Counted from the first letter of the stretch, positions 8,472 to 22,666 are shown. The stretch is DNA of 24,000 nt from Stutzerimonas stutzeri (GCF_000590475.1 NZ_CP007441.1:2025208-2049207); one strand, 5' to 3'. Notes: a model not told the origin generated them from the letters alone. Numbers and translations: made by a program.

Positions 8472-8494
8472 TTCATCAGCTCCCTGCTGATGAA
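8472..8494. promoter_or_regulatory. 23-bp perfect palindrome TTCATCAGC-TCCCT-GCTGATGAA upstream of the mini-pilin gene
   Basis: 9-bp perfect arms with a 5-nt spacer, about 45 bp upstream of ATG 8540. It lies in the lower-GC divergent region between aer and the pilus locus, with no T run after it. Confidence 0.4.
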
Positions 8495-8539
8495 TCGGCA
8501 AGGATGCCATTTGATCCGCAATGTTCATTTGGGGCGCCT

Positions 8540-8836
8540 ATGCACCGTAAATTGAGCTTGGTCATGGTGGGTTGGCTGGTTGTGATGGGTTCTCCATTCG
8601 CCAATGCCGGCGAGGCCAAAGGTCAGATGTCGATCTCGATTTCGATCCAGCCAGGCTGTGAGGTATCGAGCCGTGCCAATGCCGGCCTGTACCAGGTCGA
8701 GCACCGAAATTGCACTGGCGTGGCCGCCTACAAAGTGAATGCAGGCCAGGATCAGCTTCGTCTCGGCGCTTTGATGCGCACCTCAGTCTCCCAGGCTCAG
8801 AAAACAGCACCGCAAATCGTTACCGTGTATTGGTGA
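8540..8836 (+). CDS. Truncated spore-coat-U (SCPU)/Csu-type mini-pilin, secreted
   Basis: I prefer the start at ATG 8540 (MHRKLSLVMVGWLVVMGSPFANA|GEAKGQMSISISIQPGCEV...). It shares with the three downstream pilins an N-terminal G-x-x-x-GQM-x-x-x-I-x-I-x-x-GC-x-V strand, a second Cys (HRNCTGVAAYKV versus LKCSQGTAYNV) and the C-terminal VTVYW (versus VTVAW, VTVSW, VTVTY). The mature part is only about 75 aa against about 150 aa in the paralogs. Confidence 0.65.
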   Translation: MHRKLSLVMVGWLVVMGSPFANAGEAKGQMSISISIQPGCEVSSRANAGLYQVEHRNCTGVAAYKVNAGQDQLRLGALMRTSVSQAQKTAPQIVTVYW

Positions 8837-8874
8837 TATTCGCGCCCTGCCACTTCGTTCCCGAAAAACTCATC

Positions 8875-8980
8875 TCGTCCCCTAGCCCGTTGTGGCTGCA
8901 TTTTATGGATACTCGACGGGAAACAATATCGGTAAGACCCTGACGTGGTTCTAGGGGACGATCCCTTCGCTCGTAGGGGA
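8875..8980. promoter_or_regulatory. 11-bp perfect inverted repeat TCGTCCCCTAG / CTAGGGGACGA plus a third TAGGGGA copy, in the pilus operon upstream region
   Basis: The arms at 8875-8885 and 8951-8961 are exact reverse complements, 65 nt apart. TAGGGGA recurs at 8974-8980. The region lies 105-210 bp upstream of the major pilin ATG (9086). Confidence 0.6.
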
Positions 8981-9085
8981 GCCCCCGATTTTTCCCTTTG
9001 CCTTCTCAATGAATAATTCACTCCAAGCGAACAACCTCGGCGGCGCTTACTAAGAAGCCTGCCGGCACCACTTGGAGAGAAGGAA

Positions 9086-9625
9086 ATGTCCCGTAAGATC
9101 GTCGCTGGCGTCATGCTCGTAACTGCATCCCTGGTCGCCGGATCTGCTCTGGCAGCAGGCGAGTTGCAAGGCCAGATGAACGTGCAGATCACTATCGGCA
9201 GCGGCTGCACCGTTAGCAACGGCAGCAATGATGGCAGTCTCAACACGTTCGGCAGCATGACGTTCGGCGAATACGCCAGCCTGGATAACGTCATCGATGG
9301 CCGCTCGGTCGGCGCTGGCGGTGGCAGCTCCTTCGGTCTCAAGTGCAGCCAGGGCACCGCTTACAACGTAGCGTTGGATTCCGGTCAGAACGCCAGCGGC
9401 ACTGAGCGCCGCATGGGCAATGCTGGTGAGTACGTCAGCTATCAGCTGTACCAGGACGCCGGTCGCTCGCAGGCTTGGGGTAACGGCAGCAATGGCGGGA
9501 CCATGTTGGCTGGCGTAGGCACCGGCAATAACGAAGAGCTGGTCGTATATGGTCGCGTTCCGGCCCAGGCTACGCCGGCTGCTGGCACCTACGCAGACAC
9601 CGTGCAGGTCACCGTCGCCTGGTAA
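9086..9625 (+). CDS. Csu A/B (CupE1)-like major pilin, spore-coat-U domain
   Basis: 179 aa with strong RBS GGAGAGAAGG. Signal peptide MSRKIVAGVMLVTASLVAGSALA. SCPU pattern GQMNVQITIGSGCTVS...FGLKCSQGTAY...GTYADTVQVTVAW. First gene of a pilin-pilin-pilin-chaperone-usher-adhesin operon. Confidence 0.85.
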   Translation: MSRKIVAGVMLVTASLVAGSALAAGELQGQMNVQITIGSGCTVSNGSNDGSLNTFGSMTFGEYASLDNVIDGRSVGAGGGSSFGLKCSQGTAYNVALDSGQNASGTERRMGNAGEYVSYQLYQDAGRSQAWGNGSNGGTMLAGVGTGNNEELVVYGRVPAQATPAAGTYADTVQVTVAW

Positions 9626-9651
9626 GCCCAGGTCGTCGGAGCTTTCCAATC

Positions 9652-10167
9652 ATGGCCTTCATAGTCCGGGGTGCTCTGGCGATCTTGCTGCTATTGGCCG
9701 AGGGCCATGCAGCGATCGCCGCCAGCAAGACCGCGACCGTCGGCATCCGGGCCGAACTTCTCCCGGCATGCACTGCCGGCAGTGCGCAGGCAGGTGGGAC
9801 CACCTTCGGTACGTTGGATTTCGGCACTCACGTCTCGCTGGATAACGTCATCACGGTTGTTGGCCAGGCTGGCGCAGGCGCCTTGAGGGTCAACTGCCTG
9901 ACCGAGACGCCTTATCGCGTCCTGATCAGCGGAGGTAATAGCGGTTCGACAAACGACCGTGTCATGTCCGGTGCTGGTTCTGCGACGCTGCGTTACAACC
10001 TCTATACCGACGCCAATTTCAATGTCCTGTGGGATGACAGTACCGGTGTCAGCGGCTTGGGCAACGGTCAGGATCAGTGGCTTCCCGTTTATGGCCGCAT
10101 GCCCGCGCAGCCCATTTCCCAGACGGGGCTGTATAGCGACACGCTGACCGTTACAGTGAGTTGGTGA
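9652..10167 (+). CDS. CsuA (CupE2)-like minor pilin, spore-coat-U domain
   Basis: 171 aa with signal peptide. Motifs LPACTAGS...LDFG...LRVNCLTETPY...LRYNLY...GLYSDTLTVTVSW. Confidence 0.8.
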   Translation: MAFIVRGALAILLLLAEGHAAIAASKTATVGIRAELLPACTAGSAQAGGTTFGTLDFGTHVSLDNVITVVGQAGAGALRVNCLTETPYRVLISGGNSGSTNDRVMSGAGSATLRYNLYTDANFNVLWDDSTGVSGLGNGQDQWLPVYGRMPAQPISQTGLYSDTLTVTVSW

Positions 10168-10724
10168 TGATGCTTATACGCAGACATCCACTCAACGCCT
10201 GGTTGATTGTCGCGCTGATGGCTATGGGGCCGCTCGCGCTCGCGGATACCGGCACCAACGAGCAATCCACCAGCCAGAGTTTCCAGATCAGCGCGCGCGT
10301 CGAGCCCGGTTGCATCCTCGGCGGTGGCGCGGCGGACACGACTAACTTTGGCACGATCGATTTCGGACGCCTTGGTCAACTCGCCGCGGATATCAAGGTT
10401 GCCAGCTCATCGGGGAATGGATCGGTCATGCTGCAGTGCACGCCAGATACGCCCATCACGATAGCAATCGATGCCGGTCTGCATGGCAGTGGCGGTACCC
10501 GATACCTGGCCAAGGGCAACGAAACCTTGCGCTACCAGCTTTACCAGGACGAAGCCTTCTCCGTCGTGTGGGGCGATAACCGGGGCACGGGCACCGCATT
10601 GAGCATGACCTTCCCCTCGACTGGGGTTCAGACACTGCCCATCTACGCCCGACTGTTCCGCGAGACCACTCTGCCATCGGCCGGCATCTACACCGATGTC
10701 GTGACCGTCACTGTGACTTATTGA
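10167..10724 (+). CDS. CsuB (CupE3)-like minor pilin, spore-coat-U domain
   Basis: The track ORF starts at TTG 10161. ATG 10167 overlaps the upstream TGA (TGATG). Signal peptide LIVALMAMGPLALA. Motifs EPGCILGG...IDFG...LQCTPDTPI...LRYQLY...GIYTDVVTVTVTY. Confidence 0.8.
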   Translation: MMLIRRHPLNAWLIVALMAMGPLALADTGTNEQSTSQSFQISARVEPGCILGGGAADTTNFGTIDFGRLGQLAADIKVASSSGNGSVMLQCTPDTPITIAIDAGLHGSGGTRYLAKGNETLRYQLYQDEAFSVVWGDNRGTGTALSMTFPSTGVQTLPIYARLFRETTLPSAGIYTDVVTVTVTY

Positions 10725-10728
10725 CCAG

Positions 10729-11511
10729 ATGATGACCATGCCTGACTTCCTCTTTCGAAAACTATCCGTTCGTCCATTTCGATTGGCCGCGATTGCGCTG
10801 CTGACTACCTGCAGCGCAATGGCCGAAGCCGCCAGTTCGGTGCTGATCTGGCCTATCAATCCAACCATCGAGGCGGATGCCAGCGCTGCTGCCTTGTGGC
10901 TGGAAAACCGTGGTCAGGCGCCGGTTCGTCTGCAAGTTCGGGTGCTTGACTGGTCGCAGCAGGATCTGAACGACCAACTGGAGCCGCAGCAACAAGTCGT
11001 AGGCAGCCCGCCAATGGCTACGGTTGAGCCCGGTAAGCGCCAGCTGGTCCGCCTTATTCGCCGTCAGCCCGCCCCTGCAGGCCAGGAGCAAGCGTTTCGT
11101 GTCATCGTCGATGAGCTCCTGCCCGAGCGAACCCAGCGAGAAAATGACCTCGGCGTGCAATTCCAGATGCGTTATTCAGTGCCGCTGTTCGTATATGGCG
11201 CCGGCGCGACCGTGCCGGGCAAAAACAAAAGCGGGGAGGCTGACGGCACGGATCTCAGCTTTCGCATCGCTCAGGACAGCGGGCAAAGCTACCTGTACGT
11301 AAAAAACAGCGGCACGGTGCATGCTCGTATGTCTCAAGCGAGTCTGATGCAGGGGGCTCGCAAACTCGATATCGCCCAGGGTCTGCTCGGCTATGTTCTG
11401 CCAGCCAGTGAGATGCGCTGGCCGCTGCCGCCCGGCACGCCATCCGGTGGTGCGTCACTGCTCGTTCGGGTGAACGAGCAGGGCGAAGCGCAGACCATCG
11501 AGCCTAAGTGA
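10729..11511 (+). CDS. csuC: Periplasmic pilus chaperone (PapD fold), CsuC/CupE4-like
   Basis: 260 aa with signal peptide ...LLTTCSAMAEA. Has the chaperone signature SSVLIWPINPTIE...ALWLENRGQAPVRLQVRV...FRVIVDELLP...MRYSVPLFVY. Positioned between the pilins and the usher. Confidence 0.85.
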   Translation: MMTMPDFLFRKLSVRPFRLAAIALLTTCSAMAEAASSVLIWPINPTIEADASAAALWLENRGQAPVRLQVRVLDWSQQDLNDQLEPQQQVVGSPPMATVEPGKRQLVRLIRRQPAPAGQEQAFRVIVDELLPERTQRENDLGVQFQMRYSVPLFVYGAGATVPGKNKSGEADGTDLSFRIAQDSGQSYLYVKNSGTVHARMSQASLMQGARKLDIAQGLLGYVLPASEMRWPLPPGTPSGGASLLVRVNEQGEAQTIEPK

Positions 11512-11523: not shown

Positions 11524-13866
11524 ATGAAGATTTGGCTTGGAATGGGCGTCCGCCGCTGGTGCCTTGGCCTGCTGCTGGTGCAGGGATTGTTATCCCTGCC
11601 GTTGGCACGTGCCGAGGAGGAAGCGATGGCCTTGTATCTTGAGCTGGTTCTCAACGGAATGCCGACCGGGCAGGTGCTTGAAGTGCAAACCCAAGGCGAT
11701 GAGCTGATGGTTACACGGGGTGCGCTTCGCGATGCCGGTGTGCCTATCGATGGGGAGGCGGACGGTCAGGTCTCCTTGGGCGAGCTTGAGGGCGTCACGG
11801 CTCGTTACGAGCAGGCGCTGCAGCAATTGTTACTTACCGTCCCGCTCGACTGGTTGCCGGAGCAGCGCCTGGGTCGTACCCGCGAGACCGAGCGCAGCGA
11901 CGCGGTGAGTTCGTTTGGAGCGCTGGTCAATTACGACCTGTTCTACAGCAATACAGACAGTGTCGGCGGCTATGTCAGTGCCTGGAGCGAACAACGCCTG
12001 TTCGGCGGCCTCGGCACGCTGAGCAACACCGGCGTGTTGCGGCATACACTCGACGGGCCTCCCGGCCGTGACGGTTATTTCCGCTTCGATACCACCTGGC
12101 GATACAACGATCAGGCGCGTCTGCTCAGCTATTCGGCGGGTGATATGGTCACCGGCGCCTTGAGTTGGAACAGCGCGGTGCGCATGGGAGGCGTGCAGTT
12201 GTCACGCAACTTCGCACTGCGCCCAGACCTGATCACCTATCCGCTGCCTAGCTTCAGCGGCGGAGCGGCGGTGCCGAGCACAGTGGACCTGTTCATCAAT
12301 AACGCCAAGGTCGACAGCGCAACGCTGCAGCCGGGGCCGTTCACGTTCGATACGCTGCCGCTGATCAGCGGGGCAGGGCAGGCCACTGTAGTGACGACCG
12401 ATGTCCAAGGGCGTCAGGTCAGTACCAGCGTGCCGTTTTACGTCACCAACACGCTGCTGCGTAAGGGTCTCACCGATTTTTCCTTCTCGCTGGGTAAGCT
12501 GCGTCAGGGGTACGGTGAAGACAGTTTCGCCTATGGCCGCAGCGCCACGTCTGGCACCTTTCGCTATGGCCTATTCGACAGCCTTACGCTGGAAAGTCAT
12601 GCCGAGGCGGCATCTGGACTCGCGCTGGGAGGCTTGGGCACCACCGTTGCCCTTGGACATTTCGGTGAGCTGACCACCTCGGCCACGCAGAGCCGCTACC
12701 TAGGCACCGCAGGACACCAACTTTCGATGGGCTACAGCTACTTCGCGCGGCGTTTCGGTGTATCGGCGCAGCGGGTGCAGCGGTCACGCGGATACGCCGA
12801 CCTCGCCGTGGAGGAGGCGCTCGATGCGCGTCCGCTTGACCCTTATTTAGCGCAGGTCAGCGATCAGCTGACTTTCACCATAAGCCCGCCTCAGATCGGC
12901 TCGATCGGTCTGGGATATTTCGCCAGCCGCATCGAAGGTGGTACTAGCACGCGGTTGCTCAACCTCTCATGGTCGCGGACGCTGTGGCGAAACCTGAATG
13001 TTTACGCATCGATAAACCGCATCATCGGTGAGTCCGGTATTTCAGCGCAGGCGCAGTTCAGTGTGCCGTTTGATCTCTTGTCGACCGTGACTGCCAGCAT
13101 CGAACGTGACCGCAGCGGCGCAACGGCCGAGCGGATCAGTTACAGCCGCAACGTGCCGAGTGACGGTGGGGTGGGCTGGAACCTGGCTATGGCTCATGGA
13201 CGCGAGACATACCGGCAGGCTGATCTGTCCTGGCGCAACCCGTTTCTGCAAGCCGAGGCCGGCGTCTACGGCACCGATAATGAGCTGACACACTGGGGCG
13301 ACGTAAGCGGTTCGCTGGTTGCGATGGACGGCGAGGTATTTGCCGCCAACCGCATCGATGATGCTTTCGTCGTGGTCAGCACCGGCGGCTACGCTGACGT
13401 GCCGGTCCGCTTCGAGCATCAGTTGCTGGGTCGGACCAATCGGGACGGCCATTTGTTGGTGCCTTGGGTACCTTCCTACTATCGCGGCCAGTTCGAGATC
13501 GAGCTGCTCGACCTGCCTGGCAACGTCAGCGCATCCGAGCCTGCCCGCTATCTTTCGGTCCAGCGAGGCAGCGGCGCTCTGCTTGATTTCGACTTGAGGC
13601 AACAGCTCGCTGCTGCAGTCACGCTGGTCGACGAACAGGGCGCGCCGCTACCGACGGGCCTGCGGGTCGAGCAAGTCGGCGCTGATACTCACGAGCTGCT
13701 TGGATATGACGGTCAGGTTTACTTTGAAGCGCTCGCGACCCACAACCGACTCGAGGTCGCCCTCGTCGATGGAGGGCGTTGTCAGGTCGAATTCGACATG
13801 CCGCCCCAATCCGATGAGATTGCTCAGATCGGGCCGCTCACTTGCCTCAGGAATCAAACACCATGA
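11524..13866 (+). CDS. csuD: Outer-membrane fimbrial usher, CsuD/CupE5-like
   Basis: 780 aa with signal peptide. N-terminal LYLELVLNGMPTG typical of ushers, then a long beta-barrel-type sequence. Its stop overlaps the next start (ATGA). Confidence 0.85.
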   Translation: MKIWLGMGVRRWCLGLLLVQGLLSLPLARAEEEAMALYLELVLNGMPTGQVLEVQTQGDELMVTRGALRDAGVPIDGEADGQVSLGELEGVTARYEQALQQLLLTVPLDWLPEQRLGRTRETERSDAVSSFGALVNYDLFYSNTDSVGGYVSAWSEQRLFGGLGTLSNTGVLRHTLDGPPGRDGYFRFDTTWRYNDQARLLSYSAGDMVTGALSWNSAVRMGGVQLSRNFALRPDLITYPLPSFSGGAAVPSTVDLFINNAKVDSATLQPGPFTFDTLPLISGAGQATVVTTDVQGRQVSTSVPFYVTNTLLRKGLTDFSFSLGKLRQGYGEDSFAYGRSATSGTFRYGLFDSLTLESHAEAASGLALGGLGTTVALGHFGELTTSATQSRYLGTAGHQLSMGYSYFARRFGVSAQRVQRSRGYADLAVEEALDARPLDPYLAQVSDQLTFTISPPQIGSIGLGYFASRIEGGTSTRLLNLSWSRTLWRNLNVYASINRIIGESGISAQAQFSVPFDLLSTVTASIERDRSGATAERISYSRNVPSDGGVGWNLAMAHGRETYRQADLSWRNPFLQAEAGVYGTDNELTHWGDVSGSLVAMDGEVFAANRIDDAFVVVSTGGYADVPVRFEHQLLGRTNRDGHLLVPWVPSYYRGQFEIELLDLPGNVSASEPARYLSVQRGSGALLDFDLRQQLAAAVTLVDEQGAPLPTGLRVEQVGADTHELLGYDGQVYFEALATHNRLEVALVDGGRCQVEFDMPPQSDEIAQIGPLTCLRNQTP

Positions 13867-14858
13867 AGGGAATCGACCATCTGATCAGTTACCCGCGCGC
13901 CTTGCTGTTCATGGTACTGGCGCTGCTTTGCTCGCTGCTGGCGACCCCGGCTCGTGCCAACTGCGCGACGTTCAGCGCTGACTCAAGTCTGGGCACGATC
14001 AGTTCGCTGGCTCTGGTGGGCAATTCTCAGCGGGGCGCCGCTGCTGGCGGATTTGTCTGTACGGGTTCATTGCAACTGTTGAGCACTGCCTTCATTCGAG
14101 TATCGCTGGTCAACAGTGACTTCAAACTGGTGGGCAGCCAAGGGGGTACGGTGCCCTTCAACGTATTCGTTGATCCGGGCTATACACGGGCCTTGCAGCC
14201 TGGGCAATCCGCTGAATTCGGTGCAACAAATTTGTTGAACCTAGGAGGCACCGGCGCTGGCGTGCCGCTGTACCTCACCACGACACCGGGCGCCAATGTC
14301 CCGGCCGGCACCTATACCGGCACGGTGACCCTGCGTTGGCACTGGGCCGTCTGCGACCTGGGTTTGGTTGGCATTTGCTCTTGGTATCGCAGCCCGGGGG
14401 TTGTACAACCCTGTCCGTTGGGCCTGGTTTGTGGGACACCCAGTAACTGGGGGGAGGGTGTGCTAACAACGGTCCGCGTCACGCTCATCGTAACCAAGGC
14501 CTGCCAGATCGTTAGCCTGCCGGCAGTGGATCTGGGACGTAAGGCGCTGGTCAGCCAGTTCACTGAGGTCAGCCAGACGCTCAGTGTCCGCTGTACTAAT
14601 ACCGAAGGTTTTACACTCAGTTTCGGCAATGGCCAGAACTATCAGGCACCTTGGCGGCAAATGGCGTTCGGCAATAACCGTCTTCGTTACAACATCTATG
14701 GAACTGATAAGTCGATGCTGACGCCTAGCCGGACGCTTGATGCAATCGGCACGGGGCTCAACCAGGGCTTTCAGGTGCAGATACAAGTGGATCCCAACCA
14801 GAAGGACGTTCCGCCTGGCACCTACGTCGATAACGTGGTGCTTACGCTCAGCTATTGA
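13863..14858 (+). CDS. csuE: Two-domain pilus tip protein, CsuE/CupE6-like putative adhesin
   Basis: ATG 13863 overlaps the usher stop. Signal peptide LLFMVLALLCSLLATPARA. The N-terminal domain ends GTYTGTVTLRW and the C-terminal pilin domain runs VTKACQIVS...LRYNIY...GTYVDNVVLTLSY, so both resemble SCPU domains. Last gene of the operon, as for Csu/CupE tip subunits. Confidence 0.75.
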   Translation: MKGIDHLISYPRALLFMVLALLCSLLATPARANCATFSADSSLGTISSLALVGNSQRGAAAGGFVCTGSLQLLSTAFIRVSLVNSDFKLVGSQGGTVPFNVFVDPGYTRALQPGQSAEFGATNLLNLGGTGAGVPLYLTTTPGANVPAGTYTGTVTLRWHWAVCDLGLVGICSWYRSPGVVQPCPLGLVCGTPSNWGEGVLTTVRVTLIVTKACQIVSLPAVDLGRKALVSQFTEVSQTLSVRCTNTEGFTLSFGNGQNYQAPWRQMAFGNNRLRYNIYGTDKSMLTPSRTLDAIGTGLNQGFQVQIQVDPNQKDVPPGTYVDNVVLTLSY

Positions 14859-14876: not shown

Positions 14877-14897
14877 TCCCCTAGGCGCGCTAGGGGA
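14877..14897. repeat. Hairpin/palindrome TCCCCTAG-GCGCG-CTAGGGGA between the pilus and che operons
   Basis: 8-bp perfect stem with a 5-nt loop, 19 nt after the tip-protein stop and about 120 nt before cheY. It carries the same 8-mer core as the inverted repeat at 8875-8961. No T run follows. Confidence 0.6.
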
Positions 14898-15015
14898 AAT
14901 CCCGATATTGCGGTTTGGCGCTATTTCTTAAAATGGCCACCGACCCGCTCGTCGGCGGGCCTTTCGACGAGCGCTATCTGCGGTTGTCGTGTTCAGACTC
15001 GAATGGAGTTCGTGT

Positions 15016-15700: not shown

Positions 15701-17901
15701 TGTTCCAGAACGACCAATGGACCCGCTTGCTGCTGGGGTTCGTTGACGAAGCCCGTGACACCGCGAGCCAGGCGGAAGCCCTCGTCCTCCAACTCGAGCA
15801 GGCGCCAAATGACGGGCAGGTCGTGGACGAGCTGTTCCGCCTCATGCACACATTCAAGGGCACCGCGGGGCTATTCGACCTCAAGCCTATCGTGCGCTTT
15901 GCACATCGCATCGAAAATGTGCTGGCTGAAGTCCGCCATGGGCAGCTTCGGCTTGATCCACGAGTCATGGCGCTGATGCTTGGCGGACTCGACGAAATTG
16001 TCTCGATGATCGAGCTCATCGATGCGGACACGGGCGAATTGCCGGTCGACGATGTCCATCAGGCCGAGCTGTTGTCTGCCTTCGATGCCCTTACAGGCGT
16101 GACCGAAGAACCAATGGGAATAGTGGCAACAGGTGTGGCGCCCGTCCCTGCTGATCAGCAAGTTACGGAGCCTGACCGCTTGTGGCTGATCTCGTTGCGG
16201 TTCGACGAGCGCGCGTTCATACAAGGGCTCGACCCCCAGGCGCTGGTGCAGGCGCTTGGTCGTCTGGGCTCTATCAAGCAGATCGATACGCTCAACGACG
16301 AATTACCTGTGCTGGCCGACATGGATCCGGAACGGTGTTACTTGGGGCTGGAAATCCAGCTGCAAAGCGCGGCGAGCAAGCCGGAGATTGAAAGTCTGTT
16401 CGACTTCGTCCGGCCTTTGTGCCGCTTTGTTGTTCGCCTGGCGTCCGACGCGCCGAGCATCCCGGCGAGCGTAGATGATGCCTCGAGCCAGGACACGCGC
16501 ATAGGCCATATCCTGCTCAATAGTGGCGCCTTGACCGCCGCGCAACTGGCGCAGGGCCTGGCTATACAGCAACGCCCAGCCGCACTAAAGCCGTCGTTGG
16601 GATCAGTGCTGGTCGAGGAAGGTCTGGTACCGGCGCAGCAGGTTAACGACGCGCTGGATTTGCAGCACCAGACCCGCCAGCGGCGTGCATACGAGGGCAG
16701 CGGTGTTCGCGTAGCGGCACAAAAGCTCGACCAGCTCGTCGACCTGGTCGGCGAACTGGTGACCAGCGCGGCAGGCGTCAAGGCCAGCATCGATCGGGAT
16801 GATCTGGCCGAAGGCGCCGAGCACCTGTGCACGGTCAGCCAGCACATCGCATCGCTGCGAGAGACGGCGCTCGGCCTGCGGATGGTCGAAGTCGGCGAGA
16901 CGTTCAGCCGCTTCCATCGTGTGGTACGTGACGTCAGCGAGCAGCTGCACAAAGAAATTCATCTTGATATCCGCGGCGCCGACACTGAGCTCGACAAGCT
17001 GATAATCGATCGGCTTGCCGATCCGCTCACGCATCTGGTCCGCAATGCCATTGCCCACGGTATCGAGCCGGCGCAGGAGCGCGGGCGCGGTGGTAAGCCC
17101 GTTCAGGGCCGGGTGCGCCTGGCCGCTCGCCAGGAGTCGGGCGTAGTGATCATTGAGGTCAGCGATGACGGGCGCGGGCTGGACTGGGACAAAATTCGCC
17201 GTCGGGCCGTGCAGCTTGGCCTGATCGATGCACACCGCGAGGTAGATCAGCGCGAACTGCGCTCGCTCATTTTCAGCCCTGGTTTCAGCACCGCCAGCAC
17301 CGTATCGGAGCTGTCCGGGCGCGGTGTAGGGCTTGATGTCGTGCGTGAGGTGGTCACTGACTTGCGTGGCGAGATCGAGGTGGAGTCGGTCCGAGGCGCT
17401 GGTACGCTGTTTCGTATCCGTGTGCCACTGACACTGGCCATCATCAATGGATTCCAGTTCAGCGTCGGTACCCAGCATTATGTGGTGCCGCTGGAAACGG
17501 TTCTCGAATGCCAGGAATGGCTGGGTCCCACCGGCCAGATCCATGGCAGCTTCGCCCGTCATGGCCGATCACGTCCATGCATCGATCTGGCGAGCCTTTT
17601 CGATGGCCGGACGGCATCCAACGGGGCGCGCCGCAACGCATTGGTGGTCAGTTATGGAAGCGAGGTTGGAGCACTGATTGCAGACGACCTATACGGCGAG
17701 TTGCAGACCGTGGTCAAACCGCTTGGTCCGATATTTCGGAACCTGCCGGGTATCAGCGGAGCGACCGTGTTGGGTTCAGGGGAAATTGCTCTGGTACTCG
17801 ACGTCGCCCACCTCTTTCACAATATTGCGCAATACATCGAGGCAGGCTCGCCCAACCCGTCTGCCAAGATTACCGAACCAGAACACCATGCTGAGGAGTA
17901 A
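15700..17901 (+). CDS. cheA: CheA histidine kinase (Hpt, variable region, dimerisation, HATPase and CheW-like domains)
   Basis: ATG 15700 ([11 protein letters not shown]...). Hpt site [15 protein letters not shown]. Dimerisation region [19 protein letters not shown]. ATPase boxes [33 protein letters not shown]-terminal CheW-like domain. The 5' part of the track ORF (15577-15699) overlaps the STAS gene and is not used. Confidence 0.92.
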
Positions 17902-17903: not shown

Positions 17904-19532
17904 ATGCTTGCCATCCATAACCTAAAAATCGGCACGCGCCTGATTGCAGGCTTCAGTCTGGTCGTTCTGCTCACTGCCGCAGTCGGCGCGGTTGGCATCG
18001 TCAATCTGGCGCGTGTCAATGCGTTGTCTGACCAGATGTATCATCGTGAAATGGGCGCGCTGGAAAGTATCCAGGATGCAAATGTGCACCTTGCCTACGC
18101 GGGCCGCAGCCTGCGCAGCAGTCTTTTAGCCACCACTTACATCGAGCGCGACACCGCTTCGAGTCAGCTTCAAGAAGCCTTGAAAGCCATGCACGCTTCG
18201 ATCGATCAGGCGCGACCAAGCTTCGACACAGCGGAGTCTCGGGCCCAGCTCGACGAGCTTGACGCACATGCCAGCCGTTACGAACGTGTCCTCAGCGATG
18301 TTTTGGAGCTGAGTCAATCTCGCGAGTTGATGACGCCGAACGAGATCGCACCCTTGCTTGCACAATTACAGAACTATGGCTCGGAGACAGACGCCGCGAT
18401 GAATACGCTGGTGGATGCCAAGCGCGAACGTGCGGGGCAGGCTAACCAGCAGATCGCAGAGATATATGACGATTCACGGCTGGAGATGATCGTGCTGGTG
18501 TTATTTGCCGCGGCGATCGGCTTCGCCGTTGGGGCGCTGATCACGCGCAGCATCACCCGCCCTCTTGGTCGTGCTGTGGCAGCGGCGGACCGCCTGGCGA
18601 AAGGTGAACTGGATGCTGCCATCGAAGCCGAAGGCCGGGATGAGACCGGCCAGCTGCTGGGCGCCATGCAACATATGGCTGGGCGGATGCGAGACGTCAT
18701 GAGTGATGTTCGGAGCGCGGCGGATGCGCTGTCCTCAGCTTCTGAACAGGTAAGCGCAACATCACAGTCGCTCAGCCAGGCGGCAACCGAGCAGGCTGCG
18801 AGCGTTGAGGAAACCTCGGCGGCAGTCGCCGAGATGGCTGCCTCGATCATGCGCAATACCGATAGCGCGCAAGAGACTGACCAGATAGCTGGCCGGGCTG
18901 CGGCCGGAGCCGTGGCCGGTGGTCGTGCGGTTAACGACATGGTCGATGCGATGAAACAGATCGCCGCACGGGTAGGCGTCATTGACGATATCGCCTACCA
19001 GACCAATCTACTGGCCTTGAATGCCACCATCGAGGCGGCACGCGCGGGCGATCATGGCCGTGGGTTCGCGGTGGTCGCAGCAGAAGTTCGGAAGCTTGCC
19101 GAGCGCTGCCAGGCTGCTGCGCAGGAAATCGGTGGCCTGGCCGCTGCCAATGTGCAACTGGCCGACCAAGCCGGTGCACAGCTCAAAGACATGGTGCCGG
19201 AAATCCTTCGCACCTCCGATCTGGTGCAGGAAATCTCGGCGGCGTCCCAGGAGCAGAGCAGCGGCACGGCGCAAATTCGCGCGACCATGGGCCAGATGAA
19301 CGAGATTACCCAGCAGAACGCGTCCGCTTCGGAGGAACTTGCCGCGACCGCGGAAGAGATGAACGCGCAAGCTGAACAGCTGCTCGAACTGATCAGCTAT
19401 TTTCACCTTGGCAACCTCTCCTTTGGAGGCGGCACAAGGCCAGGCACGCTTCGGCATGTGGGCACGAGCCACCGACCTCCGTTCGTGCACGCCGAAAGCA
19501 CTGACGAAGGTCAGTTCGTGCGTTTCACCTGA
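17904..19532 (+). CDS. Transmembrane methyl-accepting chemotaxis protein (periplasmic helical-bundle-type sensor, HAMP, signalling domain)
   Basis: 542 aa with RBS GAGGAG. Two TM segments ([21 protein letters not shown]; [19 protein letters not shown]). HAMP region [20 protein letters not shown]. Tip [39 protein letters not shown]-terminal tail ends ...DEGQFVRFT. Confidence 0.9.
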
Positions 19533-19539: not shown

Positions 19540-20019
19540 GTGGATTCGATCAGCTATAAGCAGCATCTATCGTTTCGCGTGCAGGGCGCACGTTATGCGT
19601 TGGCGCTCGATCATGTCAGAGAGCTCATCGATTGCGGTCCGGTAACGCCCGTACCGCTCATGCCATCGTTCGTGCTTGGCATCGTCAATGTCCGAGGTTG
19701 CATGGTACCCGTCATCGACCTGGCGGCCCGGCTCGACCTGCCCCCAACGCAACGGAGCAAGCGCAGCTGTGTTGTGGTTGCCGAAGCGCTGTTCGATCAA
19801 CAGTCGCATCGTATCGGCCTGCTGGTGGAAGCCGTCGAAACGGTGCTAGACGTGCATGCAGACGATATCTCTCCGGCGCCAGTTTTTGGCAGCGACATCC
19901 GCCAGGATTTCATCGCGGGTGTACTAAACGGCAACCCGGGCGATACGGTCATTCTCGATTTACAGCAGTTGGTGATGCTCGGAGACCTGCAGCCGATCTT
20001 TCGGGCCGCCGCGCCGTGA
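19540..20019 (+). CDS. cheW: CheW coupling protein
   Basis: I prefer the GTG 19540 start (GAGG 5 nt upstream). CheW-like sequence LSFRVQGARYALALDHVRELID...LGIVNVRGCMVPVIDLAARLDL...VVVAEA...IGLLVEAVETVLDV. The upstream part of the track ORF overlaps the MCP. Confidence 0.85.
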   Translation: MDSISYKQHLSFRVQGARYALALDHVRELIDCGPVTPVPLMPSFVLGIVNVRGCMVPVIDLAARLDLPPTQRSKRSCVVVAEALFDQQSHRIGLLVEAVETVLDVHADDISPAPVFGSDIRQDFIAGVLNGNPGDTVILDLQQLVMLGDLQPIFRAAAP

Positions 20020-20828
20020 TTGTCGAGCGCCGGCCGCCATGCCTCGCCGACGAAGACTTTCAGTTCATCCGTGACCTGATGTTCGACGCCTCGGGTATTT
20101 CCATGGCCGATCACAAGCGCTCCCTCGTTGCGGGACGTCTCATGCCGCGGTTGCGTGCGCTGGGGCTTTGCAGCTACGCCGATTATGTGCAGCAACTCCG
20201 AAGCGCTGAGCAGCCGGGAGAACGCCGGCTGCTGATCGACCTTCTGACTACCAATGAGACGTCCTTTTTTCGCGAACCTGCTCATTTTGAAATGCTCGGA
20301 CGCTGGGTAGAGGAGCAAAACCGTCCTCTACATGTTTGGAGTGCCGCTGGCTCTTCCGGCCAGGAGGCGTTCAGCATCGCCATGACCCTGGCAGAGCACT
20401 GCTCCAGCACGAGCTGGTCGATCATCGGCAGCGATATCAGCCGAAAGGTCATGGAGCAGGCCCGACGCGCCGTTTATCCGATGGCGCAGGCGAGCCAATT
20501 CCCCCCGGGTTGGCTTGAGCGTTACTGTCTTCGCGGCATCGGTGCCAGCGAGGGTCTGTTTCGCATTGCCGAGCCGATTCGCCAGCGGGTCGAATTCGGC
20601 GAGATCAATCTCATCCAGCCATTGCCCGCTTCGCTCGGCCCGTTTGATGTGATTTTTTTGCGTAATCTGCTGATCTACTTCGATAGGCAGCACAAGCGGT
20701 TGATCCTCGCGCAATTGCTCGAGCGGCTCCGTGTTGGAGGGTTGCTGTTCATTTCCCATGCAGAAAACGTTCAAGGGATGGCGCTGCCGTTACGGGCCGT
20801 GCAACCGTCGATATTCGAGCGCCTATGA
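20016..20828 (+). CDS. cheR: CheR chemoreceptor methyltransferase
   Basis: GTG 20016 overlaps the cheW stop (GTGA). The long 5' extension of the track ORF (from 19632) lies inside cheW in another frame and is Arg/Pro-rich junk. Motifs FQFIRDLMFDASGI, LTTNETSFFREPAHF, VWSAAGSSGQEAFSIAM, IFLRNLLIYFD. Confidence 0.88.
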   Translation: MIVERRPPCLADEDFQFIRDLMFDASGISMADHKRSLVAGRLMPRLRALGLCSYADYVQQLRSAEQPGERRLLIDLLTTNETSFFREPAHFEMLGRWVEEQNRPLHVWSAAGSSGQEAFSIAMTLAEHCSSTSWSIIGSDISRKVMEQARRAVYPMAQASQFPPGWLERYCLRGIGASEGLFRIAEPIRQRVEFGEINLIQPLPASLGPFDVIFLRNLLIYFDRQHKRLILAQLLERLRVGGLLFISHAENVQGMALPLRAVQPSIFERL

Positions 20829-21895
20829 CGAAACAAGCTGAGCAAGACAGCGACATAGCGGTATTCATCATCGATCCGTCGGCGTTGGCGCGGCAGACTT
20901 TGGCGGGCTGCATCAATGCCCATCCACAGATGACGGTGATCGGTCAGGCGTCCGATCCGTTGTTCGCGCTGGCAAAAATGAAAAAGCGCTGGCCGGATGT
21001 CATGGTGCTGGATCTCGAGACACCAGAGACGGATGGCTTGGCCTTTCTACGCAAGGTCATGGCCGAGCGACCCACACCGGTCATCGTCTGCTCGGCGCTC
21101 GACAAAGCCCACACGTCGGCCAGCCTGGAGGCTCTCGCAGCGGGAGCAGTGAGTGTGCTGATCAAAGCCCGGTTAGGGGTTCGTGACGGGTTGCAGCAAC
21201 TGTCCGGCGAGTTGCTCAGGCAGATCGAGATCGCCGCGCGCAGCCGTCCGCAGCCAACAGAACGGTTGCTCGAAGCGAGTATGTCGGCCGGCGAGCCACC
21301 TATGCATCCGTTAAACCAGCAATCGTGCAGCCAACGGCTTGTGGCAATTGGTGCTTCTACCGGTGGAACCCAGGCGTTGGAGCGCGTGCTGTGTAAGTTG
21401 GATAAGGACTGTCCTGGACTGGTCATCGTCCAACACATGCCTGCCGGCTTTACCACCGCGTTCGCGCAGCGCCTGGACAATCGCTGCCGGATCGAGGTGC
21501 GAGAGGCCCGCCATCATGACGTTGTGCGCAGCGGCGTCGCATTCATCGCACCGGGAGGACGACAGACTGCGGTAAAGCGGCACGGCGGAAAGACGCTGAT
21601 CGAGATCAGCGACGGCCCGCCAGTGAATCATCACAAACCCTCGGTGGATGTACTTTTCGAATCCGTGGCCCGCTGCGTCGGCGCCGATGCTCTGGGCATC
21701 ATCATGACCGGTATGGGACATGATGGATCGAGGGGGATGTTGGCCATGCGCAACTCCGGTGCGTCTACACTGGCTCAAGATGAGGCCAGTTGCGTCGTCT
21801 ACGGCATGCCGAAGGAGGCGCTACGATTGGGTGCGGTGCAACATTCGGTCGATCTGGATGGCCTGGTCCACGCGATTCAGGCGTTTGGAAAATGA
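20825..21895 (+). CDS. cheB: CheB methylesterase with an atypical N-terminal receiver domain
   Basis: ATGA overlap with cheR. Esterase motifs IGASTGGTQAL, VIVQHMPAGFT and GMGHDG, with SCVVYGMPKEA. The receiver has the phospho-Asp (VMVLDLETPETDG), but the acidic pair reads D-P (FIIDPSALARQ) instead of D-D, and K is followed by A (LIKAR). Confidence 0.88.
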   Translation: MTKQAEQDSDIAVFIIDPSALARQTLAGCINAHPQMTVIGQASDPLFALAKMKKRWPDVMVLDLETPETDGLAFLRKVMAERPTPVIVCSALDKAHTSASLEALAAGAVSVLIKARLGVRDGLQQLSGELLRQIEIAARSRPQPTERLLEASMSAGEPPMHPLNQQSCSQRLVAIGASTGGTQALERVLCKLDKDCPGLVIVQHMPAGFTTAFAQRLDNRCRIEVREARHHDVVRSGVAFIAPGGRQTAVKRHGGKTLIEISDGPPVNHHKPSVDVLFESVARCVGADALGIIMTGMGHDGSRGMLAMRNSGASTLAQDEASCVVYGMPKEALRLGAVQHSVDLDGLVHAIQAFGK

Positions 21896-22024
21896 AGGCA
21901 GCTATTCATGCTCCGCGGAACGCGGGGCAATACCACGACGATTCAGTCTGAGCGGGTAACGTCAAATGGGACGGATGTGACAAGCCATAACCGTACAGGG
22001 ATGAAATATTGAAGGAGCAAAGCT

Positions 22025-22666
22025 ATGACGTATCGTCTATTACTGGCCGATGACCACGAACTGATCCGAGCCGGTGTCCGGATCATGATTCAGGGGATGG
22101 ATCAGTACGAGATCGTCGCAGAAGCTGAGGATGGCCCCGAAGCGGTCACACTTGCCAACGAGCATAAACCGGACATTGTGATACTGGACATTTCGATGAA
22201 GGGAGGCGGTGGGCTTGAAGCGCTGCGCTCGATCGCTGAGGTCAGCCCGACAAGCAAGGTGTTGATGTTATCCATGCATACCGATGCGGAAACGGTGTTC
22301 GAGGCCTTGCAGCAGGGTGCGACTGGCTACTTGCTGAAAGACGCAGCCAAGGCCGAGCTGCACCTGGCGCTGCGCGCGGTCAGTCGCGGCGAGCGGTATC
22401 TCAGCTCGGCGATCATGCAGCCGGTCATTGCCCAGGCGCTGGCGAAACCTGCAGTAGAGGCCGAAGGCCTGACCCAGCGTCAGATCGAAATTCTTCGACT
22501 GATCACACGCGGTACCTCGACACGCGCCATCGCCGAAGGGCTAAGCCTGAGTGTCAAGACTGTGGAAGCGCACCGATCACAGATCATGCGGCGTTTGAAC
22601 ATCCATGACGTTCCCGGCCTAGTCCTCTACGCAGTGCGCGAAGGAATCATTAGCCCCGACGATTAG
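22025..22666 (+). CDS. NarL/FixJ (LuxR-HTH) family response regulator, no cognate kinase gene adjacent
   Basis: 213 aa with strong RBS AAGGAG. Receiver motifs LLLADDHELIR, DIVILDISMKGGGGLEAL, VLMLSMH, GYLLKDA. GerE/LuxR HTH LTQRQIEILRLITRGTSTRAIAEGLSLSVKTVEAHRSQIMRRLNI. Confidence 0.9.
   Translation: MTYRLLLADDHELIRAGVRIMIQGMDQYEIVAEAEDGPEAVTLANEHKPDIVILDISMKGGGGLEALRSIAEVSPTSKVLMLSMHTDAETVFEALQQGATGYLLKDAAKAELHLALRAVSRGERYLSSAIMQPVIAQALAKPAVEAEGLTQRQIEILRLITRGTSTRAIAEGLSLSVKTVEAHRSQIMRRLNIHDVPGLVLYAVREGIISPDD

What the first reader, a model, noticed from the sequence alone, without database searches (positions are those of the whole stretch)
8472..22666. Archaic Csu/CupE-type pilus operon followed directly by a complete accessory chemosensory operon and an orphan NarL-type regulator: candidate chemosensory-controlled pilus/surface module
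Seen: a seven-gene pilus locus ends at 14858, and a tightly coupled cheY-STAS-cheA-mcp-cheW-cheR-cheB operon starts 157 bp later on the same strand. A DNA-binding response regulator with no kinase gene of its own follows. There are no flagellar genes, cheZ or motor genes in the window, and the operon carries its own dedicated receptor. Established: accessory Che-like pathways control non-flagellar outputs. Examples are Pil-Chp for type IV pili, Wsp for c-di-GMP, and M. xanthus Che3 acting through the transcription factor CrdA. Inference: this cluster may sense a signal and control expression or assembly of the adjacent chaperone-usher pilus, possibly through the downstream regulator. I know of no described Che pathway wired to a chaperone-usher pilus.
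Basis: partly seen in the sequence, partly recalled or inferred. Interest (0 to 1): 0.75.

Follow-up and report, generated by a model that had tools for sequence, protein, structure and literature searches.

The report
Pilus and chemosensory operons sharing one switch
In a group of Stutzerimonas bacteria, an adhesive-pilus operon, a spare chemotaxis-like signalling operon and a DNA-binding regulator are inherited as one 14-kb block, and the two operons carry the same conserved control site, so they are probably switched on together; this gives a testable handle on a class of chemosensory system whose function is unknown.

Summary
The window (Stutzerimonas stutzeri) holds a Csu/CupE-type chaperone-usher pilus operon. 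A translationally coupled cheY-STAS-cheA-mcp-cheW-cheR-cheB operon starts 157 bp after it, followed by a REC-GerE (NarL-type) regulator.

New findings:
- **One unit.** The three parts travel together. In six lineages (CheA identity 70% or more where it was measured) the block is colinear while the flanks differ. In the three lineages compared by DNA whose upstream flank differs, homology to the window starts near 9010; in four of the five compared it ends at the regulator's stop codon.
- **Shared operator.** Both operons carry a 15-bp dyad, TAGGGG-N3-CCCC(G/T)A, always 23 nt upstream of a -10-like hexamer. The same site precedes the che operon in two distant relatives that have the regulator but no pilus genes. 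None of 81 more distant csu loci has the site or che genes.
- **Class.** The receptor is 34H, so the system is F8-like, a class with no established function.
- **CheA insert.** CheA carries an MshEN-type c-di-GMP-binding motif.

The regulator belongs to the che cluster more deeply than the pilus does. Co-regulation is well supported. Che acting upstream of the pilus is untested; the regulator may instead drive both operons. I rate it a new variant of a known kind, of moderate to high interest.

The parts
8540..8836 (+). Small secreted SCPU-like protein (98 aa; signal peptide, two conserved Cys, ends IVT[IV]YW). It is the seventh 'pilus' gene and lies upstream of the csu operator.
   Evidence: No Pfam or NCBIfam hit. 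The protein is conserved in L085, L086, L087 and L089, and its N-terminus resembles the major pilin (E 3.5e-8).
8952..8965 (+). Upstream operator-like site (TAGGGGACGATCCC), 22 bp before the main csu dyad.
   Evidence: Pattern search; sequence read directly.
8974..8988 (+). Dyad operator of the csu promoter, TAGGGGAGCCCCCGA.
   Evidence: Conserved in 7 csu promoters (column conservation 0.88, against 0.57-0.60 for the surrounding sequence).
9012..9017 (+). -10-like hexamer AATAAT of the predicted csu promoter, 23 nt after the dyad. A strongly conserved leader (TCACTCCAAGCGAAC) follows.
   Evidence: This is my inference: the promoter scan did not call it.
9086..9625 (+). Major pilin (CsuA/B / CupE1-like, SCPU domain).
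   Evidence: Pfam SCPU E 5e-37. PDB 8cio CupE1 E 2.4e-27 and 7zl4 CsuA/B E 1.5e-14.
9652..10167 (+). Second SCPU pilin (CsuA-like position).
   Evidence: Pfam SCPU E 6e-29.
10167..10724 (+). Third SCPU pilin (CsuB-like position).
   Evidence: Pfam SCPU E 1.7e-34; gene call.
10729..11511 (+). Periplasmic PapD-like chaperone (CsuC-like).
   Evidence: Pfam PapD_N E 8e-19.
11524..13866 (+). Outer-membrane usher (CsuD-like).
   Evidence: Pfam Usher and PapC_C. Homologues of 79-100% identity occur only in the csu-che clade, where context was checked.
13863..14858 (+). Two-domain tip adhesin (CsuE-like).
   Evidence: Two SCPU stretches. PDB 6fjy CsuE, residues 36-328 against 4-309, E 4.3e-17.
14877..14897 (+). 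GC-rich hairpin (UCCCCUAG-GCGCG-CUAGGGGA) just after the tip gene. Its 3' arm is the left half of the che operator, and its 5' arm is an extra CCCCTAG half-site.
   Evidence: Sequence. RNA fold -31.5 kcal/mol, z -2.4. No T-run follows, so it is not a typical terminator.
14891..14905 (+). Dyad operator of the che promoter, TAGGGGAAATCCCGA.
   Evidence: Conserved in 8 che promoters, including two lineages without csu.
14929..14934 (+). -10-like hexamer TAAAAT of the predicted che promoter, 23 nt after the dyad.
   Evidence: inference.
15016..15396 (+). Single-domain CheY-like response regulator (GTG start; GGAG at 15005-15008).
   Evidence: Pfam Response_reg. Start confirmed by the gene call and by homologues.
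15383..15700 (+). STAS-domain protein (anti-sigma-antagonist fold). The usual phospho-serine position reads DMAA here.
   Evidence: Pfam STAS_2 E 4e-9. Comparison with relatives that read DSAG or DTAG.
15700..17901 (+). CheA kinase (Hpt, dimerisation, HATPase and CheW-like domains) with an inserted MshEN-like segment.
   Evidence: Pfam; 100% identical to an S. stutzeri CheA.
16498..16665 (+). Tandem MshEN-type c-di-GMP-binding motifs inside CheA (aa 267-290 and 299-322).
   Evidence: NCBIfam NF053729, 38.6 bits against a cut-off of 38. The published 24-residue motif matches twice. PDB PilF 6f8l E 3e-9, PilB and MshE N-domains. Conserved in the CheA alignment consensus.
17904..19532 (+). Transmembrane 4HB-HAMP chemoreceptor of heptad class 34H, with a conserved C-terminal GQFV[RS]F[NTS] motif.
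   Evidence: Pfam. Two symmetric 7-residue deletions relative to E. coli Tsr, which is 36H. C-termini compared.
19540..20019 (+). CheW adaptor.
   Evidence: Pfam CheW E 1.7e-31; gene call.
20016..20828 (+). CheR methyltransferase.
   Evidence: Pfam CheR and CheR_N.
20825..21895 (+). CheB methylesterase with receiver domain.
   Evidence: Pfam CheB_methylest E 6.5e-63. NCBIfam CheB, 400 bits, above the cut-off.
22025..22666 (+). NarL/FixJ-family response regulator (REC + GerE HTH). It is the right-hand end of the conserved block and the candidate binder of the dyad operator.
   Evidence: Pfam. Closest solved structures are VraR, NarL and DevR. The HTH is nearly invariant across the clade, L088, L090 and L001. 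DNA homology with four of the five lineages compared ends at 22665/22666.

Best explanation
This is a discrete module of about 14 kb, found in one Stutzerimonas sub-clade. It joins (i) an archaic Csu/CupE-type chaperone-usher pilus operon, (ii) an F8-like accessory chemosensory operon (CheY, STAS, CheA with an MshEN-type c-di-GMP-binding insert, a 34H receptor, CheW, CheR, CheB) and (iii) a NarL-family response regulator.

**Shown from sequence.** The block is inherited as a unit. The pilus and che operons each have their own promoter region. Both regions carry the same 15-bp dyad, TAGGGG-N3-CCCC(G/T)A, next to a weak -35 and exactly 23 nt upstream of a -10-like hexamer.

**Inferred.** Both are activator-dependent promoters switched on together by one dimeric activator. 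The best candidate is the module's own NarL-type regulator. It probably also raises its own level by read-through from the che promoter. The che-regulator-operator trio is the older unit, and the pilus operon was recruited into that regulon in this clade.

**Not resolved.** What phosphorylates the regulator is unknown; it could be CheA or an unlinked histidine kinase. So it is also unknown whether the Che array controls pilus expression or is simply co-expressed with it. The c-di-GMP motif in CheA and the adhesive pilus both suggest the module serves a surface-attached lifestyle.
For: **Unit of inheritance**
- Six lineages have the same colinear block with unrelated flanks (PAS-MCP, LysR or MFS upstream; DegP-like, amidohydrolase, GAF kinase or GntR downstream).
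- DNA homology was compared for five. It starts at 9008-9012 in L085, L086 and L087, and at 6680 in L083, which shares the window's upstream flank. It ends at 22665/22666 in L083, L085, L086 and L087.

**Operator**
- TAGGGGN{2,5}CCC occurs three times in 24 kb, all in the two promoter regions. The expected count is 0.37; 2 of 100 shuffles reached three.
- A stricter dyad pattern, scanned over 1.67 Mb of fetched loci, hits only the csu and che promoters of regulator-bearing loci, plus two strays.
- The site is present upstream of the first che gene in L088 (CheA 53%) and L090 (CheA 47%). Both have the regulator after cheB and no csu.
- Footprint: column conservation is 0.84-0.88 in the operator and 0.77-0.95 in the -10. 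The fixed 23-nt spacer and the upstream flank score 0.57-0.60. This holds across 7 csu and 8 che promoters.

**Specificity**
- 0 of 81 csu loci with 47-56% usher identity have che genes or the operator.
- 0 of 80 CheA loci from other genomes have an usher nearby.

**Regulator**
- Its HTH is nearly invariant wherever the operator is found.
- Its homologues appear to lie on the same contigs as the CheA homologues in at least 11 lineages. This is inferred from identical longest-contig lengths.
- NarL-family regulators are known to bind GC-rich palindromes. NreC is one (PMC5694512, PMC8139620); its exact site, TAGGGN4CCCTA, is from my memory of Fedtke 2002.
- PprB, a NarL/LuxR regulator, directly activates CupE in P. 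aeruginosa (PMC3510237).

**Class and c-di-GMP**
- The 34H receptor points to an F8-like class (PMC11253619, PMC7184735).
- The MshEN motif in CheA is supported.
Against: - No experiment or binding data exist. The assignment of the operator to this regulator rests on co-occurrence and on family precedent.
- The consensus promoter scan called neither promoter. The -10 and spacing assignments are my reading of the alignments.
- The six lineages are close relatives. Shared descent explains part of the synteny.
- In L001 a 56%-identical regulator has its own PAS-HisKA_3 kinase, and the operator there is only a degenerate run of CCTAGGG repeats. L005 (regulator 48%) shows no clear operator.
- The cheB-regulator spacer is not conserved and has no operator in the window.
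- In L085 the chaperone gene is split, and in L086 cheB is split. Either the module is decaying in some lineages or these are assembly errors.
Confidence: 0.6

Rival explanations
1. The chemosensory array senses a signal through its 34H receptor (and c-di-GMP through CheA). CheA then phosphorylates the kinase-less NarL-type regulator, which activates the pilus operon and the che operon itself, giving positive feedback. On this reading the F8-like pathway is a transcriptional controller of a chaperone-usher pilus.
For: - The regulator sits directly after cheB, with no kinase gene beside it, in eight lineages: the six clade members plus L088 and L090.
- Its receiver has the usual acceptor residues.
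- The operator stands in front of both operons.
- In P. syringae, CheA1 of the F8 system showed no detectable interaction with its own CheY1 but did interact with another response regulator, WspR. It affected biofilm rather than chemotaxis (PMC11253619).
Against: - There is no phosphotransfer evidence.
- L001 pairs a 56%-identical regulator with a conventional PAS-HisKA_3 kinase.
- L088 has a PAS kinase one gene away.
- The full genome could not be searched for an unlinked kinase.
- The operon keeps a normal CheY and CheB, which are the expected CheA substrates.
Confidence: 0.25
2. The regulator is controlled by an unlinked kinase and drives two independent cargoes. The Che operon has its own output, for example modulating flagellar behaviour or c-di-GMP turnover through CheY/STAS. 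It is merely co-expressed with the pilus, so that motility behaviour and attachment change together.
For: - The shared operator supports co-expression without any need for Che-to-pilus signalling.
- Some relatives do have kinases next to the regulator.
- The che-regulator-operator unit exists without pili in L088 and L090.
- F8 mutants of P. syringae show mild swimming and biofilm changes (PMC11253619).
Against: - No conserved kinase accompanies the module in any of the six clade lineages. The nearby kinases in different lineages are not homologous to each other.
- This reading does not explain why the block stays physically intact across changing flanks.
Confidence: 0.3
3. The adjacency is an accident of descent. 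A csu operon landed next to an accessory che cluster in one ancestor and has simply not been separated since. The shared motif is non-functional, for example a remnant of a duplicated promoter fragment or a local repeat.
For: - All six lineages belong to one genus-level clade.
- 81 other csu loci and 80 other che loci show no such linkage.
- Some genes in the block are split in two lineages.
Against: - The flanks have been exchanged repeatedly while the block stayed intact, with sharp borders.
- The motif is a conserved island within diverged intergenic DNA, with fixed spacing to a -10 element in 15 promoters.
- It is older than the linkage, because it is present in L088 and L090.
- It is almost absent from 1.67 Mb of other sequence.
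Confidence: 0.1

Closest known systems
PprAB control of CupE fimbriae in Pseudomonas aeruginosa
   Same: A NarL/LuxR-family response regulator directly and positively controls an archaic (Csu/CupE-type) chaperone-usher pilus promoter (PMC3510237). The pilin here is a CupE1 homologue (8cio, E 2e-27).
   Different: - PprB has a dedicated kinase, PprA, and no Che cluster is known to be involved.
- Here the regulator lies at the end of a chemosensory operon with no kinase gene beside it, and the same operator also precedes the che operon.
F8-class chemosensory system of Pseudomonas syringae pv. tomato (cluster II / che1)
   Same: - It is an accessory Che cluster with its own single 34H two-transmembrane receptor. 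The receptor tip is at G380 there and G382 here.
- It is not the flagellar F6 system, and its function is unresolved (PMC11253619, PMC5088630).
- CheA homologues from the P. cichorii and P. gingeri groups are 42-46% identical.
   Different: - No chaperone-usher operon and no shared operator have been described there.
- Class membership was inferred here from the receptor's heptad class, not from the class HMMs.
Che pathways with non-flagellar outputs (Wsp, Pil-Chp, M. xanthus Che3-CrdA)
   Same: A complete Che-like operon with a dedicated receptor, encoded beside a candidate output regulator and a surface structure.
   Different: - The output regulator would be NarL-type, not a GGDEF protein (WspR) or an NtrC-type regulator (CrdA).
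- The neighbouring appendage is a chaperone-usher pilus, not a type IV pilus.
- Whether CheA signals to the regulator at all is unknown.
A1S_2811, the CheA/Y-like hybrid of Acinetobacter baumannii
   Same: A CheA-like kinase whose deletion lowered pilus-like structures. Its authors speculate that it regulates the csuA/BABCDE operon (PMC5635159).
   Different: - It is a ChpA-type hybrid encoded in its own operon, not a classical CheA with MCP, CheW, CheR and CheB.
- It is not linked to csu, and the effect is indirect, acting through quorum sensing.
MshEN-domain c-di-GMP receptors (MshE, PilB, PilF)
   Same: Two tandem copies of the 24-residue MshEN motif, with detectable homology to solved MshEN domains. 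MshEN-CheA fusions were listed in the original survey (PMC5013675).
   Different: Here the motif sits between the P1/P2 region and the dimerisation domain of a CheA. No binding or effect on kinase activity is known.

Membership tests
Archaic (Csu/CupE-type) chaperone-usher pilus | Pilins with the SCPU (spore coat protein U) domain, homologous to CsuA/B / CupE1 | tested here: met
   Pfam SCPU E 5e-37, 6e-29 and 1.7e-34. PDB 8cio E 2.4e-27; 7zl4 E 1.5e-14.
Archaic (Csu/CupE-type) chaperone-usher pilus | PapD-like chaperone and outer-membrane usher, in the order pilins-chaperone-usher-tip | tested here: met
   PapD_N, Usher and PapC_C domains. The gene order is the same in all six lineages.
Archaic (Csu/CupE-type) chaperone-usher pilus | Two-domain tip adhesin homologous to CsuE | tested here: met
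   6fjy CsuE aligned over residues 36-328 against 4-309, E 4.3e-17.
Archaic (Csu/CupE-type) chaperone-usher pilus | Assembled pili on the cell surface | not testable with these tools
   Needs microscopy or biochemistry.
F8-class chemosensory system | CheA, CheB and CheR assigned to F8 by the class-specific HMMs (Wuichet and Zhulin / MiST) | not testable with these tools
   The class HMMs are not available here. NCBIfam gives only generic CheA and CheB matches.
F8-class chemosensory system | An in-cluster receptor of heptad class 34H with two transmembrane segments | tested here: met
   Two symmetric 7-residue deletions relative to Tsr, which is 36H. 4HB-HAMP architecture. The literature links 34H to F8 (PMC11253619, PMC7184735).
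F8-class chemosensory system | Complete core set (CheA, CheW, CheY, CheR, CheB) separate from flagellar genes | tested here: met
   no flagellar genes in the window.
PprAB-CupE type regulation | NarL/LuxR-family response regulator (REC + GerE HTH) | tested here: met
   Pfam Response_reg and GerE. Closest solved structures are VraR, NarL and DevR.
PprAB-CupE type regulation | Orthology to PprB | not tested
   No PprB sequence was available. None of the best 120 homologues is named PprB, and no NCBIfam equivalog reaches its cut-off.
PprAB-CupE type regulation | A dedicated sensor kinase encoded with the regulator | tested here: not met
   No kinase gene lies next to the regulator in the window or in seven other lineages. 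Only L001 has one.
PprAB-CupE type regulation | The regulator binds the pilus promoter | not testable with these tools
   Only a predicted operator at 8974-8988.
Che pathway with a transcription-factor output (Che3-CrdA type) | CheA phosphorylates a DNA-binding response regulator encoded beside the che operon | not testable with these tools
   The adjacency is met. Phosphotransfer needs an experiment.
MshEN c-di-GMP receptor domain | The 24-residue motif RLGxx(L/V/I)(L/V/I)xxG(L/V/I)(L/V/I)xxxxLxxxLxxQ, usually in tandem | tested here: met
   Two matches to the published relaxed motif, at CheA aa 267-290 and 299-322. NCBIfam NF053729, 38.6 bits against a cut-off of 38. PDB PilF E 3e-9.
MshEN c-di-GMP receptor domain | Binds c-di-GMP | not testable with these tools
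   Needs a binding assay.

The most novel reading that the evidence does not exclude
An F8-class chemosensory array, gated by c-di-GMP through an MshEN insert in CheA, phosphorylates the kinase-less NarL-type regulator. Through one dyad operator it thereby switches on both an adhesive chaperone-usher pilus and its own operon. This would be the first defined output of an F8 system and the first Che pathway wired to a chaperone-usher pilus.
Probability: 0.22. Interest if true: 0.8.

Novelty: new variant of a known kind. Interest (0 to 1): 0.6.

Why it matters
F8 chemosensory systems are widespread in proteobacteria, yet no function has been established for them. In P. syringae the kinase and its CheY do not even behave as a pair (PMC11253619).

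This module offers a concrete, testable handle with four parts:
- a predicted operator;
- a candidate regulator;
- a visible output, the pilus;
- a likely second-messenger input, c-di-GMP acting on CheA.

If the regulator binds both promoters, a chaperone-usher pilus has been drawn into a chemosensory regulon. That would be a route to sensory control of attachment, known so far for type IV pili and for c-di-GMP synthesis but not for chaperone-usher pili. It also shows how a regulon can grow: an operon inserted next to the regulator's own cluster comes to carry the same operator.

Tried and rejected
**Searches that gave little or nothing**
- The genome-collection scan with a CheA alignment used patterns too general to be useful. 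It returned mostly distant CheAs (48% identity or less) and missed the close relatives. It served only as a negative control for usher adjacency.
- The metagenome scan with the 61%-identical usher P0128 found nothing.
- Look-ups of the ushers of two genomes that carry both systems unlinked (P0155, P0178) were not on record. I could therefore not test whether unlinked csu operons carry the operator.
- L091, the only out-clade csu locus with the operator, ends inside the tip gene, so its downstream genes are unknown.
- The consensus promoter and terminator scan found no sites at either promoter and no convincing terminator between the tip gene and cheY.
- Rfam found no known RNA element in the window, including the conserved csu leader.
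- I could not read Fedtke 2002 or Schlag 2008 to confirm the exact NreC site.

**Ideas considered and rejected**
- F7 'stage 1/2' membership. Those clusters have Aer2-like 36H receptors and a different gene order (PMC7184735), whereas the receptor here is 34H.
- A conserved cognate kinase near the module. The kinases found near the regulator in L001, L088, L086 and L081 are not homologous to one another.
- The upstream PAS-MCP as part of the module. It is present only in the window and in L083.

Full report
**Source and gene content**

The CheA, usher and regulator of the window are 100% identical to proteins annotated from Stutzerimonas stutzeri, on a contig of 4.73 Mb.

- three SCPU pilins, a PapD-like chaperone, an usher and a tip protein with two SCPU stretches;
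- then CheY, STAS, CheA, a 4HB-HAMP-MCP, CheW, CheR and CheB;
- then a REC-GerE regulator.

The major pilin matches the CupE1 pilus subunit of P. aeruginosa (8cio, E 2.4e-27) and CsuA/B of A. baumannii. The tip protein aligns end to end with CsuE (6fjy, E 4.3e-17). The gap between the tip gene and cheY is 157 bp, and the che genes overlap or nearly abut.

A seventh, small gene (8540-8836) has no family match. It encodes a secreted protein that is conserved in four other lineages, and its N-terminus resembles the major pilin.

The rest of the window encodes a TonB-dependent receptor, an AraC regulator, a PAS-MCP and a DegP-like protease. There are no flagellar genes.

**Synteny, starting from CheA**

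Close relatives of this CheA are rare. There are six hits at 69-81% identity, and the next best are at about 53%.

I looked at the genes around five of them. Every lineage at 70% or more has the same order: small ORF or intergenic region, three pilins, chaperone, usher, tip, cheY, STAS, cheA, mcp, cheW, cheR, cheB, regulator. These lineages are the window itself, L083 (81%), L085 (74%), L087 (71%) and S. marianensis L086 (70%). A sixth lineage, S. nosocomialis L089, was found through the usher and has the same block.

The flanks differ:
- upstream, a PAS-MCP, a LysR regulator or an MFS transporter;
- downstream, a DegP-like protease, an amidohydrolase, a GAF kinase or a GntR regulator.

Pairwise blastn shows sharp borders:
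- Homology between the window and L085, L086 and L087 begins at 9008-9012.
- In L083, L085, L086 and L087 it ends at 22665/22666, the regulator's stop codon.
- L083 shares the window's upstream flank, so its homology starts earlier, at 6680.
- L089 was not compared by DNA.

The three parts therefore form one unit of inheritance of about 13.7 kb, or 14.1 kb with the small ORF.

**Synteny further out**

At 53% and 47% CheA identity (L088, a Pseudomonas MAG; L090, Pseudomonas sp. RIT-PI-AD) there is no pilus operon. The cluster there reads: cytoplasmic MCP, cheY, STAS, cheA, 4HB-MCP, cheW, cheR, cheD, cheB, NarL-type regulator.

The regulator after cheB is thus older than the pilus linkage. In the protein searches, regulator homologues of 66-73% identity show the same longest-contig lengths as CheA homologues of 47-53% in at least eleven lineages. 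That suggests they share contigs.

In L001 (an S. stutzeri MAG, CheA 48%) a 56%-identical regulator sits in an operon with a PAS-HisKA_3 kinase, divergent from the che operon.

None of 80 CheA loci from other species has an usher or chaperone within 10 kb.

**Synteny, starting from the pilus**

Ushers of 79-100% identity come only from the same clade, wherever I could check the context. The next group is at 61% or below.

I examined 81 loci with ushers of 47-56% identity: one look-up and 80 metagenomic loci. None has cheA, STAS, an MCP or cheB next to it. The linkage is specific to one clade.

**A shared operator**

I aligned the intergenic regions of five lineages. The same motif stands in front of csuA/B and in front of cheY.

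In the window:
- The csu site is TAGGGGAGCCCCCGA (8974-8988). A second, weaker site lies 22 bp upstream (8952-8965).
- The che site is TAGGGGAAATCCCGA (14891-14905).
- A loose pattern finds exactly these three places in 24 kb. The expected count is 0.37, and 2 of 100 shuffles reached three.

In other lineages:
- In L085-L087 and L089 the che site is the near-perfect palindrome TAGGGGGCGCCCCTA.
- In L090 it is the perfect palindrome ATCGGGGATACCCCGAT, with a second dyad beside it.
- In L088 it is TAGGGGAAACCCCGA.

A stricter dyad pattern, scanned over 1.67 Mb of fetched loci, hits only these promoters plus two strays.

The geometry is constant. The dyad is followed by 23 non-conserved bases and then a -10-like hexamer: AATAAT or TAAAAT for csu, TA(A/G)A(A/G)T for che in the six clade lineages, and TATCGT and TATGGT in L088 and L090 (in L089 the hexamer is shifted by 1 nt).

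Column conservation across 7 csu and 8 che promoters is as follows:

| Region | Column conservation |
|---|---|
| Operator | 0.84-0.88 |
| -10 hexamer | 0.77-0.95 |
| 23-nt spacer and upstream flank | 0.57-0.60 |

The dyad therefore lies next to a weak -35, centred near -43. That is the position of a class II activator; this reading is my inference. The generic promoter scan did not call these sites, which is expected for a promoter with a poor -35.

None of the 81 out-clade csu loci has the operator. The one exception is L091 (usher 60%, pilin 77%). It has TAGGGGTTTGCCCAA and the conserved leader, but its contig ends in the tip gene.

**Who binds it**

The candidate is the module's own regulator. 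The case for it is circumstantial and rests on four points:
- The regulator is present in every lineage that has the operator.
- Its HTH is almost invariant from the window to L001.
- It belongs to the NarL family. Members such as NreC bind GC-rich palindromes (PMC5694512, PMC8139620). I recall the NreC site as TAGGGN4CCCTA from Fedtke 2002, but could not check it.
- PprB, a NarL/LuxR regulator, binds the cupE promoter in P. aeruginosa (PMC3510237).

There is no operator in the poorly conserved cheB-regulator spacer of the window. The regulator is probably read through from the che promoter. If so, and if it binds the dyad, it autoregulates.

**What kind of Che system**

Aligned to E. coli Tsr (36H), the operon's receptor has two symmetric 7-residue deletions, one on each arm of the hairpin. 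That makes it 34H, with its tip at G382.

The literature assigns 34H two-transmembrane receptors to F8 systems. The single 34H receptor of P. syringae (tip at G380) lies in its F8 cluster (PMC11253619, PMC7184735). F8 systems have no established function. In P. syringae the F8 kinase is not needed for chemotaxis and was not seen to interact with its CheY (PMC11253619).

I could not run the class HMMs, so 'F8-like' is an inference.

Compared with L088, L090 and L001, the pilus-linked clade differs in three ways:
- it has lost the cytoplasmic MCP;
- it has lost cheD;
- its STAS protein has lost the serine at the usual phosphorylation position (DSAG or DTAG has become DMAA or DIAA).

**A c-di-GMP motif in CheA**

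Between the N-terminal region and the dimerisation domain, CheA carries two tandem copies of the MshEN 24-residue motif, at aa 267-290 and 299-322.
- NCBIfam's MshE-related model scores 38.6 bits against a cut-off of 38.
- The published relaxed motif matches twice (PMC5013675).
- The segment finds the MshEN domains of PilF (6f8l, E 3e-9), PilB and MshE in the PDB.
- The motif is conserved in the consensus of 24 CheA homologues.

MshEN-CheA fusions were listed but not studied in PMC5013675. This ties the kinase to the second messenger that governs attachment.

**Interpretation**

Three things are well supported:
- the parts form a discrete, conserved module;
- the two operons share a conserved operator and promoter geometry;
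- the che-regulator-operator unit is older, and the pilus joined it.

Two things are inferred: that the regulator binds the operator, and that both promoters depend on it.

Two facts leave this undecided. Eight lineages have no kinase beside the regulator, while L001 has a conventional kinase.

The only literature link I found between a Che-like kinase and a chaperone-usher pilus is a speculative, indirect one in A. baumannii (PMC5635159).

**Verdict**

This is a new variant of known kinds: accessory Che pathways, and NarL-type control of CupE-like pili. It comes with a concrete cis-regulatory prediction that makes it directly testable.

Noticed in passing
window 16498-16665 (CheA aa 267-322): CheA carries two tandem MshEN-type c-di-GMP-binding motifs ([24 protein letters not shown] and [24 protein letters not shown]). 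They are conserved across 24 homologues and homologous to solved PilF, PilB and MshE N-domains. A c-di-GMP-gated CheA has, as far as I could find, been listed but never studied.
   Followed up: partly
window 15548-15559 (STAS aa 56-59): In the pilus-linked clade the STAS protein reads DMAA or DIAA where relatives without the pilus operon (L088, L090, L001) read DSAG or DTAG. This is the position of the phosphorylatable serine in anti-sigma antagonists, so the partner-switch chemistry may have been lost here.
   Followed up: partly
window 19509-19529 (MCP C-terminus): After a variable linker, the receptor ends in a motif conserved in all nine lineages, (D/E)(D/E/S)(G/D/S)(Q/H)FV(R/S)F(N/T/S). 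It resembles the CheR/CheB-tethering pentapeptide but carries one extra final residue. The P. syringae F8 receptor is also reported to have a pentapeptide.
   Followed up: partly
window 8540-8836: A small secreted protein (98 aa; two Cys; ends IVTVYW) has no family match. It is conserved upstream of the csu operator in L085, L086, L087 and L089. It looks like a truncated SCPU pilin and is transcribed separately from the pilus operon.
   Followed up: partly
window 14877-14897: A GC-rich hairpin lies right after the tip-adhesin stop codon, and its 3' arm is the left half of the che operator. It could be a 3' end or stabiliser of the csu transcript, or a third half-site for the regulator. No T-run follows it.
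   Followed up: partly
window 9018-9040: The csu leader just after the -10 element (TCACTCCAAGCGAAC) is almost invariant across seven lineages, although the surrounding DNA has diverged. No Rfam family matches it, and its role is unknown.
   Followed up: partly
window 6676-8283 (- strand): A PAS-domain MCP lies directly upstream of the module, in the window and in L083 only. From its tip position (E395 of 535 aa) its cytoplasmic arm looks about 40H long, which would suit the flagellar F6 pathway rather than this operon. It shares a 100-bp conserved tip-coding stretch with the operon's MCP.
   Followed up: partly
L085 5024-5810; L086 15099-16150: In L085 the chaperone gene is split into two ORFs (135 + 118 aa). 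In S. marianensis L086 cheB is split (287 + 63 aa). These are either assembly errors or signs that the module is decaying in some lineages.
   Followed up: no
L081 19029-21576 (about 2.7 kb beyond the regulator, just outside the window); L086 16989-18698: GAF-containing hybrid histidine kinases lie near the regulator in two lineages, but they are not homologous to each other. No conserved cognate kinase accompanies the module.
   Followed up: yes
L088 20147-21120; L088 7038-7973: The pilus-less relative has further signalling genes around its che cluster: a CheX/CheC-like phosphatase with a receiver protein, and a CheW-REC (CheV-like) gene. The streamlined Stutzerimonas module has none of these.
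   Followed up: no
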